DNA of 64,000 bases from Clostridia bacterium (GTDB taxonomy: Bacteria; Bacillota; Clostridia; Oscillospirales; Acutalibacteraceae), in assembly GCA_017549285.1 (NCBI GenBank), contig JAFYVE010000046.1, forward strand, positions 2,294 to 66,293, written 5' to 3'. The notes beneath the pieces were generated by a model. It had not been told where the DNA came from and did not search any database. It saw nothing but the letters and a program-made list of their open reading frames with translations. The position numbers and the translations under genes were made by a program. Numbering within the stretch: position 1 is the first letter of the stretch; each line of letters opens with the position of its first letter. Shown here in pieces: positions 44,420-53,658 of the stretch.

Positions 44420-45064
44420 ATGCCTACACAGAAAGTATCAAAAATTACGACAGAACGCAGCGACCTTTTCCTTCGTGCATCAAAAGGACATTTTGCTTCA
44501 ACGCATTCTCACAGCAATTATTATATTGATGTTGCCGCTCAGAAATCGAGACTCTCAGAAGCAAAGGCAGTAGCAAAAGAAATTTGCCGTAATTATAACT
44601 ATAATACAAGAATTGTTGACACAATTCTTTGCCTTGATGGTACGGAAGTTATCGGCACCTGCCTTGCAGAAGAACTTACAAAGCACGACTTTATGAATAT
44701 CAATGCCCATCAGACAATTTATGTTGTCACACCTGAAATGACAGGCTCATCTCAGCTCCTTCTCCGTGACAATATCGTGCCTATGGTAAAGGATAAGCAC
44801 GTTCTTGTTCTTGCTGTTTCTGTTGCTTCGGGTAACACGGTCAAGAATGCGATTGAGGCTGTTAAATATTACGGCGGTGAAGTTGTCGGTATCGGCTCAA
44901 TCTTTGCAACAACAGAAGAAATCTCAGGTTATCAGGTTGACAGCGTTTTTAATCCCAACGATTTACCTGATTATTTCTCAGTGCCTTCTCACGAATGTCC
45001 CCTGTGTAAAGAAAAAGTCAAAATTGACGCTCTTATCAATTGTTACGGTTATTCAAAACTGTAA
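44420..45064 (+). CDS. Phosphoribosyltransferase-domain protein (OPRT-like)
   Basis: PRPP-binding loop HVLVLAVSVASGNTV; C-terminal CPLCKEK. RBS AAGGAGG. Promoter TTGCAA-17-TACAAT at 44345-44373. Confidence 0.55.
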   Translation: MPTQKVSKITTERSDLFLRASKGHFASTHSHSNYYIDVAAQKSRLSEAKAVAKEICRNYNYNTRIVDTILCLDGTEVIGTCLAEELTKHDFMNINAHQTIYVVTPEMTGSSQLLLRDNIVPMVKDKHVLVLAVSVASGNTVKNAIEAVKYYGGEVVGIGSIFATTEEISGYQVDSVFNPNDLPDYFSVPSHECPLCKEKVKIDALINCYGYSKL

Positions 45065-49908: not shown

Positions 49909-49987
49909 TTTATTATGTTCTGCACCATAACAGGTTGCACTCAAAGTCCGTGAGTTTCAGTTTGATTTTCTTATTAAACATAAAAAT

Positions 49988-50036
49988 GACCTCCTTGTAT
50001 TTGGTAATACCATTTTACAAGGAGGTCTGTGTTTTG
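49988..50036. terminator. 12-bp stem hairpin between convergent genes
   Basis: gacctccttgta (49988-49999) pairs with tacaaggaggtc (50016-50027). T-rich on both sides. Confidence 0.65.
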
Positions 50037-50056
50037 TCGAATGTATGGAAGTTTAT

Positions 50057-51967
50057 TTACGAAACATATACCGCTGATACGAATTGTTTTAATTCTTCAA
50101 TATTTGTAAAATAACGATATCCATATTTGCTTACAATAGCCTGAATTTCTGCTGGCTCGTTGAGAAGAAGTGCAGTCGGTTCACTCAAACCTGTCTGAAT
50201 GCCGTGTGGCCAAGCGAGGTCGATTATTGCGACAACCTTTCCAGTCTCATCAATCAATTCGTGGTTATGTATACCTTCATGTAGCCCTTTTTCTGCCATC
50301 CACAAAGACATATTTTCGATATCCTCTTCTTCTGAAAGAGATGCTTCATATTCCTTTGATGCATAAGACAAAATCATAGTTTCTTCCATCTTACCATAGT
50401 ACAAAGAATCTAGCAAATCATTTGCTGCTTTAGCAAGCAACTTGCGTCTTTCTTCAAGGAATTTTTCATAGTTTTCGATTTCCCACAATTCGGGATCACT
50501 GGGAATCCAATGTGTATCCATTGCTCCTGGACACTTCGCTCTATATTCAGGAAAGTATTCATTAGGATATCTATTAGAGATGGCAATATTTGTTTCCTTC
50601 GTTAAAAAAGCATAGTTTGCAAGTGCATTAACAATTGCTTTATTCTTTCCTTCTTTATAAAGAATATCTTTGGGGAAAATATGATGAACGTCAAGAGAAG
50701 AACTTTTACCTAACAGTCCACTTTTAAGTTCAAGATTAGTTCCCCAATCTCGAGAATTGTTGGTTCTCGTGAGCAAATAAAGCAGTGGATAAAATCTTGC
50801 GCCTGTACTCCATCCCCAAAAATCTTCCGGCCTAATTTTTAAATCACCTCGAGATTGCTTTAACTGACGAATTAATCCTTCAATTCCGTCACCTCGATTA
50901 ATGGAATTTAAATCCTGTGCCATATTACTTTCAGTAGAACCTGCATAGCGCCCCCAAAGAAAAGCGTGCACATACCAATATAAAAGTTTATCCCATTCTG
51001 CACTACCGGATAATTTCCATTTATTATATCTTAAATAGCCTATCATTGTAACAATGGCAAACACACCACCAAGAACACGCGCATGATCCAAACCTAATCT
51101 TGAACCAATGTGATCTAAACATGTACCTATCATCTGTTCGGTTTTCGGCATTGCATCTTTAATTTTATCTGCAGAAATTTGACTAAGTGCGTTAAAATAA
51201 GGCTGCCCTGTGAGATATACAGTTATGCATCTTAATAACCAATCAATTGTAAAATCATAACCGGCTTTCTCAAATTTTGCGAGAATTTTCTTCATCTCGT
51301 TACGAGCTTCGGGCCATTCTCCGCAAATTTTTGCAAGAGCCAAGTCACCTTTACTCAATTTAGTGCCACCACTATTAACATTATTGAAAATTTCAACAAC
51401 CACATCAATAGTCTTATCGACACCAGAAACAGTTTGAACATGGATATCAAGTTGTTTGATACTATCAAGTCTGTTAAGTGCACTCATATGCTCAATCCAA
51501 AACATTGCATTTTCAGGTTCCGCAGTCATTTTCTTTTGAACAAAATTTGATGCACCCATTTTCATTAATTCAGTAACGCTTATCCACGCCTTATCGCTTT
51601 TCATTTTTGCCGCAAGATAAAACTCAAAAATTTCATCCTCTACGTTGAAATAAAGACCTGTAAAAGAATAGGGATTTCCATCAAAAAACTTTGGCGGTTC
51701 GCCCCTGATAATACCATAAAGAGTAGTCATTCTCTGTTGACCATCTAATATTAAATTAACATTACCAGGTGTTAGCGGTCCATCACCACGAGATATATTA
51801 GGATCGGTTGTTGTGTTCCATACAAGCAACTCACCAATAGGGTAGCCTTTATACAACGAACCCATAAGCTTTCTGACTTGGTCACGATTCCACACGTAAC
51901 CACGCTGAAAAACAGGCATTGCATAGCTTCCCAGATCTATTTGACTTAGTATTGTAATAATTTCCAT
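50057..51967 (-). CDS. GmrSD-family type IV restriction-like protein (DUF262 N-terminal domain + His-Me/DUF1524-like nuclease + extra C-terminal tail)
   Basis: PVFQRGYVWNRDQV and LILDGQQRMTTLY are DUF262 hallmarks, with FNNVNSGGTKLSKGDLALAKI. DVHHIFPKD...LANYAFLTKETNIAISNRYP matches the nuclease motif. ATG 51967 is preferred (AAAGGA upstream); an alternative ATG at 51985 lacks an RBS. Confidence 0.8.
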   Translation of the reverse strand: MEIITILSQIDLGSYAMPVFQRGYVWNRDQVRKLMGSLYKGYPIGELLVWNTTTDPNISRGDGPLTPGNVNLILDGQQRMTTLYGIIRGEPPKFFDGNPYSFTGLYFNVEDEIFEFYLAAKMKSDKAWISVTELMKMGASNFVQKKMTAEPENAMFWIEHMSALNRLDSIKQLDIHVQTVSGVDKTIDVVVEIFNNVNSGGTKLSKGDLALAKICGEWPEARNEMKKILAKFEKAGYDFTIDWLLRCITVYLTGQPYFNALSQISADKIKDAMPKTEQMIGTCLDHIGSRLGLDHARVLGGVFAIVTMIGYLRYNKWKLSGSAEWDKLLYWYVHAFLWGRYAGSTESNMAQDLNSINRGDGIEGLIRQLKQSRGDLKIRPEDFWGWSTGARFYPLLYLLTRTNNSRDWGTNLELKSGLLGKSSSLDVHHIFPKDILYKEGKNKAIVNALANYAFLTKETNIAISNRYPNEYFPEYRAKCPGAMDTHWIPSDPELWEIENYEKFLEERRKLLAKAANDLLDSLYYGKMEETMILSYASKEYEASLSEEEDIENMSLWMAEKGLHEGIHNHELIDETGKVVAIIDLAWPHGIQTGLSEPTALLLNEPAEIQAIVSKYGYRYFTNIEELKQFVSAVYVS

Positions 51968-52112
51968 ATTATAAAATCCTTTCATTATTCTATATTGATA
52001 AATGGTATGCTTTTTAAAATCAGTTTGCTATAAGATAAATATTATTGTTATCAAAGCAAAATCTTTTCTTCATTATATCACATAATAGTTAATTAACTCA
52101 ATACCCCTATAC

Positions 52113-52146
52113 AACAAAAAAACCAAGGCTATTTTTAACCTTGGTT
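52113..52146 (-). terminator. Rho-independent terminator on - strand, downstream of the displaced tmRNA 3'-end copy
   Basis: aaccaagg/ccttggtt stem; on the - strand it is followed by T7. Confidence 0.6.
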
Positions 52147-52226
52147 CTTGTCTTTCTGTCAGATGTCCACTTTCACGGCGAAGCCGCCTGTGAAGAAGTA
52201 GTAGGTGTTCGTCTGACTTTCGATTA

Positions 52227-52247
52227 GTGGAGATGGCGGTATCCGAA
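52227..52247 (-). repeat. Direct copy of the last 21 nt-equivalent of the tmRNA gene (att-like)
   Basis: gtggagatggcggtatCcgaa versus 52397-52417 gtggagatggcggtatTcgaa (1 mismatch). Confidence 0.8.
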
Positions 52248-52356
52248 GGCTGACGCCTTCGGCTGAATTCGATTATAAGTCCCTCGTGTCTCCGCCTTCA
52301 GCGAACCGACACGAGATGGACTATGCGGTTTCGAATACCTTGATAAAATGACAGTC

Positions 52357-52389
52357 ATAAAAAAATAACACCTCAGAAGAGGTGTTATT
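52357..52389 (-). terminator. tmRNA terminator
   Basis: aataacacctc/gaggtgttatt 11-bp stem immediately 3' of the CCA end; T-run on the - strand. Confidence 0.85.
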
Positions 52390-52394
52390 TTTTA

Positions 52395-52747
52395 TGGTGG
52401 AGATGGCGGTATTCGAAACCGCGTCCGAAAATTCATTCTCTCAGCTTTCTACGAGCGTAGCCGATAAATTAAATCTCTCCCTCAACACGCCTGTCGGCAG
52501 GCTTATATCGGGACAGCTCCGTTATGCATGACGGGTTACGGAGACACTTGCCCGTTCACGTTCACTGCTAATCGACGCCTTATCCCGGTCCGCAGTACTA
52601 CCGGGTAAGACGGCAGCTATTAAGCAGCTGCTAAAACAGTTTTATTGTTGTCGTTTATTTTTAATAAACTTGCGATTTTTAAAGCGGTACCGCACCTCTG
52701 CTCGCTTACCGGGATTCAAAATCCCCGTCGAAATCCTTTCATCCCCC
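52395..52747 (-). ncRNA. ssrA: tmRNA (SsrA)
   Basis: The - strand reads GGGGGATGAAAGGATTTCGACGGGG... at the 5' end and ...GGACGCGGTTTCGAATACCGCCATCTCCACCA at the 3' end. The internal tag frame ends ..NDNNKTVLAAA-TAA-TAG. It sits directly downstream of smpB. Confidence 0.93.
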
Positions 52748-53268: not shown

Positions 53269-53658
53269 TTATTTGACTCTGCACATAGTAAATGATGCTT
53301 TTGCAATAGTTTTGTTGCAATCATCATTTATAACAACGTCGCAGAAAACAAGAGTTTTGCCTCTTTTTATGACTGTGGCTTCTGCAATAAGCTTACTTCC
53401 CTGTGTTGCACTCAGAAAACTGATGTTGCCGTCAGCTGAAACAAAAGCAATTTCATCAGCGTTTGCCGTGACGGCACTTGCGAAATCTGCAAGTGTGAAA
53501 AAAACACCGCCCTGTACACAATTGTTGCCGTTGAAATGCTTTTCTTCAATATCGATTTCTACAATTGAATGATTGCTGTCGGCTTCAATTATCCTGCAAC
53601 CCATATAGGTTGCAACACGGTCATTGCTGAAAAAATTTCTGAGTTCATCAATAGTCAT
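53269..53658 (-). CDS. PaaI-family hotdog-fold thioesterase
   Basis: HFNGNNCVQGGVFFTLADFA motif; 129 aa. Confidence 0.7.
   Translation of the reverse strand: MTIDELRNFFSNDRVATYMGCRIIEADSNHSIVEIDIEEKHFNGNNCVQGGVFFTLADFASAVTANADEIAFVSADGNISFLSATQGSKLIAEATVIKRGKTLVFCDVVINDDCNKTIAKASFTMCRVK

What the first reader, a model, noticed from the sequence alone, without database searches (positions are those of the whole stretch)
50057..51985. Orphan GmrSD-type defence gene wedged between a glycan-utilisation cluster and smpB-ssrA
Seen in sequence: a 636-642 aa protein carries the DUF262 hallmarks (FQRGYVW, DGQQR, NSGGTKLSKGDL) and a C-terminal DVHHIFPK...N..N..LTKETN motif. The gene stands alone on the - strand between hairpins at 49988-50036 and 52113-52146, with an AT-rich upstream region, about 400 bp from the tmRNA gene. 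Established knowledge: DUF262 plus a DUF1524/His-Me nuclease is the architecture of GmrSD, BrxU and SspE, which are modification-dependent anti-phage nucleases, and tmRNA loci are classic island hotspots. Inference: this is a single-gene type IV restriction/defence islet. The last ~130 aa (..ETGKVVAIIDLAWPHGIQTGLSEPTALLLNE..) are not part of the canonical architecture. They loosely resemble the DLAWP..E core of DUF559/PD-(D/E)XK domains, so this could be a variant with a second nuclease or sensor module.
Basis: partly seen in the sequence, partly recalled or inferred. Interest (0 to 1): 0.7.

Follow-up and report, generated by a model that had tools for sequence, protein, structure and literature searches.

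The report
Orphan BrxU-like restriction gene beside tmRNA
This is an intact, horizontally acquired single-gene anti-phage nuclease of the well-known GmrSD/BrxU family, sitting in a swap-prone slot next to the tmRNA gene; its only unusual feature is an extra, unannotated C-terminal domain of about 95 residues that looks like a restriction-endonuclease fold.

Summary
The ORF is real (50057-51985, minus strand). Homologs and a ribosome-binding site put the true start at 51967, giving 636 aa. It has a strong GmrSD_N/DUF262 domain. It matches the PADLOC HEC-05 (BrxU) model at E=6.7e-45, and its predicted fold matches BrxU at E=4.6e-16. The HHIFPK...N...N nuclease motif is invariant in 20 homologs. 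The last ~95 residues form a separate conserved domain with no Pfam or PDB sequence match. That domain occurs in 411 protein clusters, nearly always after a GmrSD nuclease, and sometimes ahead of Schlafen/AlbA_2, DUF5655, NERD or kinase modules. Its confident model (pLDDT 91) has the alpha-beta-beta-beta-alpha-beta topology of restriction endonucleases. Fold matches to DUF559/VRR-NUC proteins are only borderline, and there is no canonical (D/E)xK lysine. None of 80 related species carries a GmrSD gene at smpB-ssrA. Between the same conserved flanks, the closest relatives hold a different conflict-type gene or nothing. Other family members lie after helicase-methylase-nuclease clusters or on integrative elements. 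Verdict: an ordinary family member in an interesting slot, with a modestly novel extra domain. Function is untested.

The parts
50057..51967 (-). GmrSD/BrxU-family gene, 636 aa (the longest ORF extends to 51985)
   Evidence: ORF; homolog lengths and start; RBS; Pfam, PADLOC and fold matches
51323..51967 (-). N-terminal DUF262/GmrSD_N ParB-like NTPase domain (aa 1-215) with the KLMGS (RLFDS-equivalent) and DGQQR motifs
   Evidence: Pfam PF03235 E=3.7e-28; sequence alignment to BrxU 7p9k over residues 10-57; invariant columns
50768..51322 (-). Helical linker region (aa 216-400)
   Evidence: The AF2 model is all-helical here with pLDDT mostly 85-96; covered by the HEC-05 profile
50393..50767 (-). 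DUF1524/GmrSD_C His-Me (HNH) nuclease domain (aa 401-525): HHIFPK 428-433, N447, N451, N460
   Evidence: Pfam PF07510 at 21.2 bits, below the 23-bit cut-off; invariant motif; fold hits to BrxU and Cas9 HNH domains
50060..50338 (-). Extra C-terminal domain (aa 544-636), unannotated, restriction-endonuclease-like topology, core motif DLAWPxGxQxGxSxPxALL(D/N)E
   Evidence: No Pfam or PDB sequence hit; 411 clusters carry it; AF2 pLDDT 91; fold searches; conservation
52072..52101 (-). Promoter-like site (TTGAGT, 18 nt, TG-TATAAT); the -10 element is partly conserved in L009
   Evidence: alignment
52118..52149 (-). Terminator hairpin, the ancestral ssrA terminator, within the conserved segment 52113-52247
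52227..52242 (-). Second exact copy of the tmRNA 3' end (ATACCGCCATCTCCAC); the first copy is at 52397-52412
   Evidence: 0 of 100 shuffles reached 3 matches
52243..52394 (-). Mini-element of about 150 nt between the two copies (own terminator plus a structured core); present in L008, absent in L009
52395..52746 (-). tmRNA gene (ssrA), tag DNNKTVLAAA
49913..50044 (-). Remnant of the left part of a TnpV/DUF6809-type mobile module. It holds a conserved leader, a hairpin (49973-50042) whose 3' arm is an AAGGAGG RBS, and a 22-codon stub (49981-49913) of a 52-aa ORF. Homology to relatives ends near 49928.

Best explanation
The gene encodes a stand-alone, BrxU-like (GmrSD-family, PADLOC HEC-05) type IV restriction enzyme.

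Mechanism, inferred by homology to BrxU: the N-terminal DUF262 ParB-like domain binds and hydrolyses NTP through the KLMGS and DGQQR motifs. This drives a dimer-monomer cycle that licenses the C-terminal His-Me (HNH) nuclease (HHIFPK...N...N) to cut invading DNA that carries modified bases.

The enzyme carries one extra C-terminal domain of about 95 residues with a restriction-endonuclease-like fold. Its acidic/polar patch (E546, E570, D583, Q591, D/N603-E604) is conserved but has no catalytic lysine. I think this domain is most likely a DNA- or ligand-binding or regulatory module, and in relatives it serves as a docking point for further modules. A second nuclease role is less likely.

The gene is expressed from its own promoter. 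It arrived by horizontal transfer into a recombination-prone slot between the ssrA terminator and the left end of a TnpV-type mobile module that has since been truncated. That left a one-gene defence islet.
For: - Shown, family: GmrSD_N at E=3.7e-28. HEC-05 at E=6.7e-45 over residues 75-525 and PDC-M55C at 7e-26. BrxU is the only PDB sequence hit and the top fold hit, at E=4.6e-16 over 611 columns, followed by Cas9 HNH and ParB. Catalytic motifs are invariant in 21 sequences of 62-92% identity.
- Literature: HEC-05 equals BrxU. BrxU cuts 5mC, 5hmC and glc-5hmC DNA, needs NTP hydrolysis, and depends on its DGQQR and DHIYP motifs (10.1101/2024.01.29.577857; PMC8565348). HEC-05/BrxU act without partner genes (PMC11411939).
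- Shown, mobility: no GmrSD homolog lies after smpB-ssrA in 80 related species loci, 44 of which have at least 3 kb of downstream sequence.
- Shown, slot: window and L009 share both flanks at 92-93% identity (52113-52247 and 49928-50044). Between them lies GmrSD in the window, a 458-aa 2-TM (CyanoTRADDas_TM) gene in L009, and nothing in L008.
- Shown, strain variation: Logan contigs of 2.2 kb hold the gene alone, which implies assembly-graph forks at both flanks. GC3 is 28%.
- Shown, family contexts: relatives lie directly after SNF2-methylase-ResIII clusters, on integrase/relaxase elements, or alone after gatCAB. IMG/VR viral contigs encode seven full-length relatives at 48-66% identity.
- Shown, tail.
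Against: - No experiment was done. Modification-dependence, NTP use and phage protection are all inferred.
- Pfam GmrSD_C is below its gathering score. The first motif residue is His where BrxU has Asp (HH against DH).
- TM-scores to BrxU are only 0.36-0.39, because the domains are oriented differently in the model.
- Several relatives sit in-line behind methylase/helicase clusters, so some family members may cooperate with partners.
- No integrase, and no direct repeat enclosing the gene itself, was found. The tmRNA 3'-end repeat brackets only the 150-nt mini-element.
- The compositional deviation is mild: the gene is at the 11th percentile of window GC.
Confidence: 0.72

Rival explanations
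1. The C-terminal domain is a second, active PD-(D/E)xK-type nuclease. This subfamily would then be a two-nuclease type IV enzyme, for example with HNH and REase-like sites each cutting one strand.
For: The domain has the alpha-beta-beta-beta-alpha-beta-alpha topology at pLDDT 91. The best fold neighbours are nucleases: DUF559 (TM 0.56/0.52, prob 0.84), VRR-NUC (TM 0.51), and weakly TnsA, the R2 endonuclease domain, OkrAI, Can2 and PvuRts1I. Four acidic positions are 80-97% conserved across 98 diverse copies: E546, E570, D583 and E604. Acidic-only active sites exist in this superfamily, for example BamHI (own knowledge).
Against: No fold hit is significant (best E=0.049; all PDB hits have E>=0.5). 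No Lys or His is conserved where (D/E)xK or ExDGxxH would lie, and the strand-3 position is Leu. No Pfam nuclease family matches, even at E<=10.
Confidence: 0.2
2. The protein is not autonomous. It is a stray component of a larger helicase-methylase-nuclease (Hma/type III-like) system, and in this genome it is inactive or serves another role.
For: Relatives P0120, P0087 and P0012 lie 13-155 nt downstream of SNF2 / N6_N4 methylase / ResIII genes, in the same orientation.
Against: Payne et al. describe exactly this embedding for HEC-05/BrxU, which nevertheless defends on its own. Other relatives are solitary or sit on mobile elements without such clusters. The window gene is full length, has all motifs intact, and has its own promoter-like site and RBS. 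No PADLOC-recognised partner lies within 10 kb on the low-coordinate side, and only housekeeping genes lie upstream.
Confidence: 0.12
3. It is an SspE-like enzyme that senses phosphorothioate (self) modification rather than phage base modifications.
For: Weak PADLOC SspE hits exist (E about 1e-5), but only to the first 90 residues.
Against: HEC-05 scores 40 orders of magnitude better and spans both domains. No ssp or dnd genes appear in the gene lists within 10 kb on either side.
Confidence: 0.03

Closest known systems
BrxU (= PADLOC HEC-05), GmrSD-family type IV restriction enzyme of Escherichia fergusonii pEFER (PDB 7p9k/7p9m)
   Same: It has the same order of DUF262 NTPase, helical linker and DUF1524 HNH nuclease. 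The RLFDS-like and DGQQR motifs are present. It is the best sequence and fold match. It is a single-gene system that is often embedded in or next to other defence systems.
   Different: Identity is only about 20%. The nuclease motif reads HHIFP where BrxU has DHIYP. Our protein has about 95 extra C-terminal residues forming a separate domain that BrxU (587 aa) and the HEC-05 profile (which ends at residue 525) lack. It lies beside ssrA, not inside a BREX locus.
GmrSD of E. coli CT596 / Eco94GmrSD
   Same: It has the fused DUF262-DUF1524 architecture and belongs to the same Pfam families. Machnicka et al. 2015 already noted extra, unassigned C-terminal regions in some homologs.
   Different: The additional domains named in that paper (DUF4268, DUF4357, DNA_binding_1) are not what is found here; the tail matches no Pfam family.
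HEC-06, SspE and TgvAB (other GmrSD-like defences)
   Same: They share the DUF262 N-terminal domain.
   Different: Matches are weak and cover only the N-terminus. SspE needs sspABCD and TgvAB is a two-protein system; neither context is present here.
DUF559 / Vsr-like and VRR-NUC members of the PD-(D/E)xK superfamily (for the tail only)
   Same: The core topology is the same, and these are the best named fold neighbours, with TM 0.51-0.56. A 'D..(A/F)xP' strand is followed by a hydrophobic strand.
   Different: There is no sequence-profile match. The catalytic E/D-x-K or ExDGxxH motif is not conserved. The fold matches are not statistically significant.

Membership tests
GmrSD / BrxU (HEC-05) type IV restriction enzymes | N-terminal DUF262 (ParB-like NTPase) domain with the DGQQR and RLFDS-type motifs | tested here: met
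   PF03235 E=3.7e-28. DGQQR 75-79 and S37 are (nearly) invariant. The region aligns to BrxU residues 10-57.
GmrSD / BrxU (HEC-05) type IV restriction enzymes | C-terminal DUF1524 His-Me/HNH nuclease with (D/H)H-I-x-P and downstream Asn residues | tested here: met
   HHIFPK, N447, N451 and N460 are invariant. The HEC-05 profile covers the domain. Fold hits go to BrxU and Cas9 HNH. Caveat: Pfam PF07510 scores 21.2 bits, below its 23-bit cut-off.
GmrSD / BrxU (HEC-05) type IV restriction enzymes | Overall fold similar to a solved family member | tested here: met
   Foldseek against 7p9k_A: E=4.6e-16, prob 1.0, 611 columns. TM is only 0.36-0.39 because of domain orientation.
GmrSD / BrxU (HEC-05) type IV restriction enzymes | NTP-dependent cleavage of modified (5mC/5hmC/glc-hmC) DNA and phage protection | not testable with these tools
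   This needs biochemistry and phage challenge. It is known for BrxU.
SspE | Full-length SspE profile match and linkage to sspABCD | tested here: not met
   Only residues 10-93 match, at E>=7.8e-6. No ssp/dnd genes appear in the flanking gene lists.
DUF559 / Vsr-like PD-(D/E)xK nucleases (tail domain) | Sequence-profile match to PF04480 or a related family | tested here: not met
   hmmscan of the tail alone at E<=10 gave no family. phmmer against the PDB gave only chance Hsp20 hits.
DUF559 / Vsr-like PD-(D/E)xK nucleases (tail domain) | Restriction-endonuclease-like alpha-beta-beta-beta-alpha-beta core fold | tested here: inconclusive
   The topology fits at pLDDT 91. BFVD hits to DUF559 and VRR-NUC have TM 0.51-0.56 and E 0.05-0.2. 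The top PDB hits are all PD-(D/E)xK proteins but have E>=0.5.
DUF559 / Vsr-like PD-(D/E)xK nucleases (tail domain) | Conserved catalytic residues (D ... (D/E)xK, or ExDGxxH) | tested here: not met
   In 98 diverse copies, D583 is 97% conserved and E604 92%. No Lys or His is conserved, and the strand-3 position is Leu.
tmRNA-associated genomic island | Direct repeat of the ssrA 3' end bounding the inserted DNA | tested here: not met
   An exact 16-nt repeat exists, but it brackets only the 150-nt mini-element at 52243-52394. The GmrSD gene lies outside it.
tmRNA-associated genomic island | Integrase or other mobility gene within the islet | tested here: not met
   No integrase appears in the gene lists within 10 kb. 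Only a 130-nt stub of a TnpV-type module remains; the complete module is present in L009 and L008.
tmRNA-associated genomic island | Variable presence at the locus among close relatives | tested here: met
   0 of 80 related species loci carry it. The slot holds three different contents in the window, L009 and L008.

The most novel reading that the evidence does not exclude
The conserved C-terminal domain is a new functional module of type IV restriction enzymes. It could be a second (PD-(D/E)xK-derived) catalytic centre. It could instead be a reader of a modified base or of a phage-derived signal that sets substrate choice. In either case it would also serve as the adaptor onto which further effectors (Schlafen/AlbA_2, NERD, DUF5655, kinase) are fused in relatives.
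Probability: 0.25. Interest if true: 0.55.

Novelty: new variant of a known kind. Interest (0 to 1): 0.35.

Why it matters
How BrxU-type enzymes recognise modified DNA is still unknown; Picton et al. saw no base-binding pocket. A widespread subfamily carries an additional conserved domain of unknown role. That subfamily is a tractable place to look for a specificity or regulatory module, because truncation and point mutants are easy to make. The locus is also a clean natural example of single-gene defence cargo being swapped between conserved flanks next to ssrA in uncultured ruminant-gut Clostridia. Otherwise the gene is an ordinary member of a well-described defence family.

Tried and rejected
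- NCBIfam gave no hit for the protein. PHROGs gave only families of unknown function for the N-terminal domain and nothing useful for the tail.
- A word-indexed homolog search with the tail alone found only one protein. The exhaustive phmmer search was needed.
- A PDB sequence search with the tail gave chance Hsp20 hits.
- Foldseek of the full-length model cannot see the tail, so the tail was modelled and searched separately.
- I first read the duplicated tmRNA 3' end as the att boundary of an island containing the gene. The alignment to L009 and L008 showed that it encloses only a 150-nt element, so I dropped that reading.
- A third, 3-mismatch copy at 44877 was treated as chance.
- I considered the downstream hairpin to be the gene's own terminator. 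It is a conserved part of a TnpV/DUF6809 module, found in 13 metagenome contigs behind unrelated genes.
- Exact-match scans of viral contigs for the hairpin and for the mini-element found nothing.
- SspE-type and partner-dependent readings were considered and ranked low (see rivals).
Full report
**Observation**

The window has a 642-codon ORF at 50057-51985 on the minus strand. Twenty close homologs (62-92% identity, 632-656 aa, most about 636) all begin at the second Met. An AAAGGA ribosome-binding site lies 9 nt upstream of the ATG at 51967 and none precedes 51985. The product is therefore most likely 636 aa. All residue numbers below use the 636-aa numbering.

A full-length tmRNA gene lies at 52395-52746 on the same strand (ARAGORN; Rfam 161 bits). 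It is preceded by smpB, a 4HBT thioesterase gene and argS. Both reported hairpins exist. The 145-nt spacer upstream of the gene is 21% GC.

**What the protein is**

- Pfam finds GmrSD_N/DUF262 at E=3.7e-28. GmrSD_C/DUF1524 scores 21.2 bits, just under its 23-bit cut-off.
- PADLOC's HEC-05 model matches residues 75-525 at E=6.7e-45, and PDC-M55C matches at 7e-26. SspE and HEC-06 models match only the first ~90 residues weakly.
- HEC-05 is BrxU according to Payne et al. (10.1101/2024.01.29.577857).
- BrxU (7p9k) is the only PDB sequence hit.
- An AlphaFold2 model (pLDDT 79.9) has BrxU as its top fold match (E=4.6e-16, 611 columns), followed by Cas9 HNH domains and ParB/Noc. That is exactly the ParB-like NTPase plus His-Me nuclease pair expected.
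- KLMGS (the BrxU RLFDS equivalent), DGQQR and HHIFPK (BrxU has DHIYP) are conserved.
- For BrxU these motifs are required for NTP hydrolysis, dimer-monomer cycling and cleavage of 5mC, 5hmC and glc-5hmC DNA (PMC8565348).
- HEC-05/BrxU defend without partner genes (PMC11411939).

Membership in the GmrSD/BrxU family is therefore well supported. Activity is inferred.

**The tail**

Residues 544-636 are not covered by the HEC-05 profile. They match nothing in Pfam even at E<=10, nothing in NCBIfam and nothing in the PDB by sequence.

An exhaustive phmmer search of 1.84 billion cluster representatives found 411 proteins with this domain, 151 of them below 1e-10. Where enough upstream sequence exists, it usually follows a GmrSD nuclease: 23 of 38 with at least 130 upstream residues show the HNH motif, and 8 of 9 with at least 480 upstream residues (near full length) have both DGQQR and HNH.

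In 16 of 150 representatives, further modules follow the tail. These are Schlafen/AlbA_2, DUF5655, a Ser/Thr kinase, NERD, or a degenerate second copy of the tail. A few proteins have unrelated N-termini.

Modelled alone with 15 sequences, the tail folds confidently (pLDDT 91.1) as alpha-beta-beta-beta-alpha-beta-alpha. This is the core topology of the restriction-endonuclease-like (PD-(D/E)xK) fold.

- Against the PDB no match is significant. The weak top hits are nevertheless almost all PD-(D/E)xK proteins: TnsA, the R2 endonuclease domain, DrdV, OkrAI, Can2 and PvuRts1I, all at E>=0.5.
- Against predicted viral structures, the best hits are an uncharacterised phi191 protein (E=0.049, prob 0.97, TM 0.53), a DUF559 protein (TM 0.56/0.52) and VRR-NUC proteins (TM 0.51).
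- Across 98 diverse copies the conserved polar residues are E546, E570, D583, Q591, S595, D/N603 and E604. W556, W586-P587 and G589 are also conserved. No lysine or histidine is conserved, and the strand-3 position where (D/E)xK would lie is leucine.

The canonical active site is not there. I favour a binding or regulatory role and give an active second nuclease about 20%.

**Genomic setting**

SmpB relatives place the window in Acutalibacteraceae (Oscillospirales), in ruminant-gut MAGs. The identical contig is from a ruminant metagenome assembly.

None of 80 related species loci has a GmrSD homolog after smpB-ssrA. Of these, 44 have at least 3 kb of sequence beyond the tmRNA, and 17 contigs end within 500 nt of it.

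The three nearest relatives have ArgS at 97-99% and SmpB at 95-96% identity. Two of them are informative.

- **L009** shares two flanking segments with the window at 92-93% identity. One is 52113-52247, which holds the ssrA terminator and part of the promoter. The other is 49928-50044. Between them L009 has a 458-aa gene with a CyanoTRADDas 2-TM conflict-system domain in place of GmrSD.
- **L008** has no gene in this position.

The downstream flank is the start of a small module: a conserved leader, a hairpin whose 3' arm is an AAGGAGG ribosome-binding site, a 52-aa ORF, DUF6809 and TnpV. L009 has this module complete. The same hairpin was found by exact match in 13 metagenome contigs, and 8 of them carry the intact 50-52-aa ORF behind entirely different upstream genes. 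The homology boundary lies about 25 nt before the hairpin.

In the window this module is cut off after 18 codons, at about 49928, leaving a 22-codon stub ORF next to the convergent pectate-lyase-like gene. The L009 island continues with an HATPase-TIR protein and a C5 methylase fragment.

Two Logan contigs of 2.2 kb contain only the GmrSD gene. They end in the two conserved flanks, as expected if strains differ here.

GC is 37.2% (GC3 28%) against a window mean of 40.1 +/- 2.2%.

No other PADLOC-recognised defence gene lies in the 10 kb on the low-coordinate side. The neighbours there are a sulfatase, a GH16 enzyme, an Amidase_6 protein, phosphatase-type enzymes (Exo_endo_phos, Metallophos) and unannotated genes. 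'Orphan' is therefore fair, and 'glycan-utilisation cluster' is plausible but loose.

**Family contexts**

- Relatives at 62-79% identity lie immediately downstream of SNF2 helicase / N6_N4 methylase / ResIII clusters. This is the embedding described for HEC-05.
- Others lie on elements with integrase, RepA_N, Mob_Pre relaxase, a toxin-antitoxin pair or a reverse transcriptase.
- One sits alone after gatCAB.
- IMG/VR viral contigs encode seven full-length relatives at 48-66% identity, out of 21 viral loci with any relative.
- The hosts named by source databases span Oscillospiraceae, Lachnospiraceae, Phascolarctobacterium and Bacteroidales.

This is the pattern of a horizontally mobile defence gene.

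**Verdict**

This is a single-gene, BrxU-like type IV restriction islet in a variable slot beside ssrA.

Three corrections apply:
- The start codon is probably 51967.
- The two hairpins belong to the neighbours: the ssrA terminator and the leader of a mobile module.
- The tmRNA 3'-end repeat does not bound the gene.

The one feature beyond the textbook architecture is the C-terminal REase-like domain. It defines a sizeable, unannotated subfamily.

Novelty: a new variant of a known kind. Interest is modest at 0.35.

Noticed in passing
window 52243-52394 (- strand), with repeat copies at 52227-52242 and 52397-52412; also L008, L014, L019, L026, L029, L030, L032, L037, L063, L069, L076, L081: A structured element of about 100-150 nt lies directly after the tmRNA terminator. 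It starts with an inverted copy of the tmRNA T-arm and ends with a direct copy of the tmRNA 3' end, which always matches the species' own tmRNA. It is present in the window and L008 and absent in L009. It recurs 130-190 nt after ssrA in 12 of 71 related species loci. It folds with z=-6, and 7 of 22 consensus pairs show compensatory changes. No Rfam family matches. It may be a scar of a miniature integrative element or an undescribed RNA/DNA element tied to ssrA.
   Followed up: partly
window 49913-50044; L009 12564-13445; L097-L108: A conserved module (leader, hairpin with an embedded RBS, 52-aa ORF MFNKKTKLKLTDFECNLLINGMNEFRNMLL..., DUF6809, TnpV) occurs behind unrelated genes in many ruminant or gut metagenome contigs, with a sharp homology boundary about 25 nt before the hairpin. 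It probably marks the end, or a cargo hotspot, of a family of mobile elements. The window retains only a 130-nt stub.
   Followed up: partly
L009 11171-12547 (same slot as the GmrSD gene): The closest relative carries a 458-aa protein here, with a CyanoTRADDas 2-TM domain and no PADLOC match. It is a candidate abortive-infection effector. It is followed further on by an HATPase_c_3-TIR protein (SpbK/ThsB-like hits) and a C5-methylase fragment.
   Followed up: partly
window 53269-53658 (-): The 129-aa 4HBT thioesterase gene between argS and smpB is absent from the three nearest relatives. In L008-L010, argS and smpB are only about 90-260 nt apart, so this is another small indel in the same neighbourhood.
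   Followed up: no
P0148 and P0161 (relatives of the tail domain): Some proteins carry a second, degenerate copy of the tail right after the first (motif E(L/F)xLAWPExK(I/V)G(I/V)W). This suggests the domain can duplicate in tandem.
   Followed up: no
L008-L087 (smpB loci of related species): 17 of 71 species-representative contigs end within 500 nt downstream of the tmRNA gene. This fits repeated or strain-variable DNA (mobile elements) at this site across the family.
   Followed up: no
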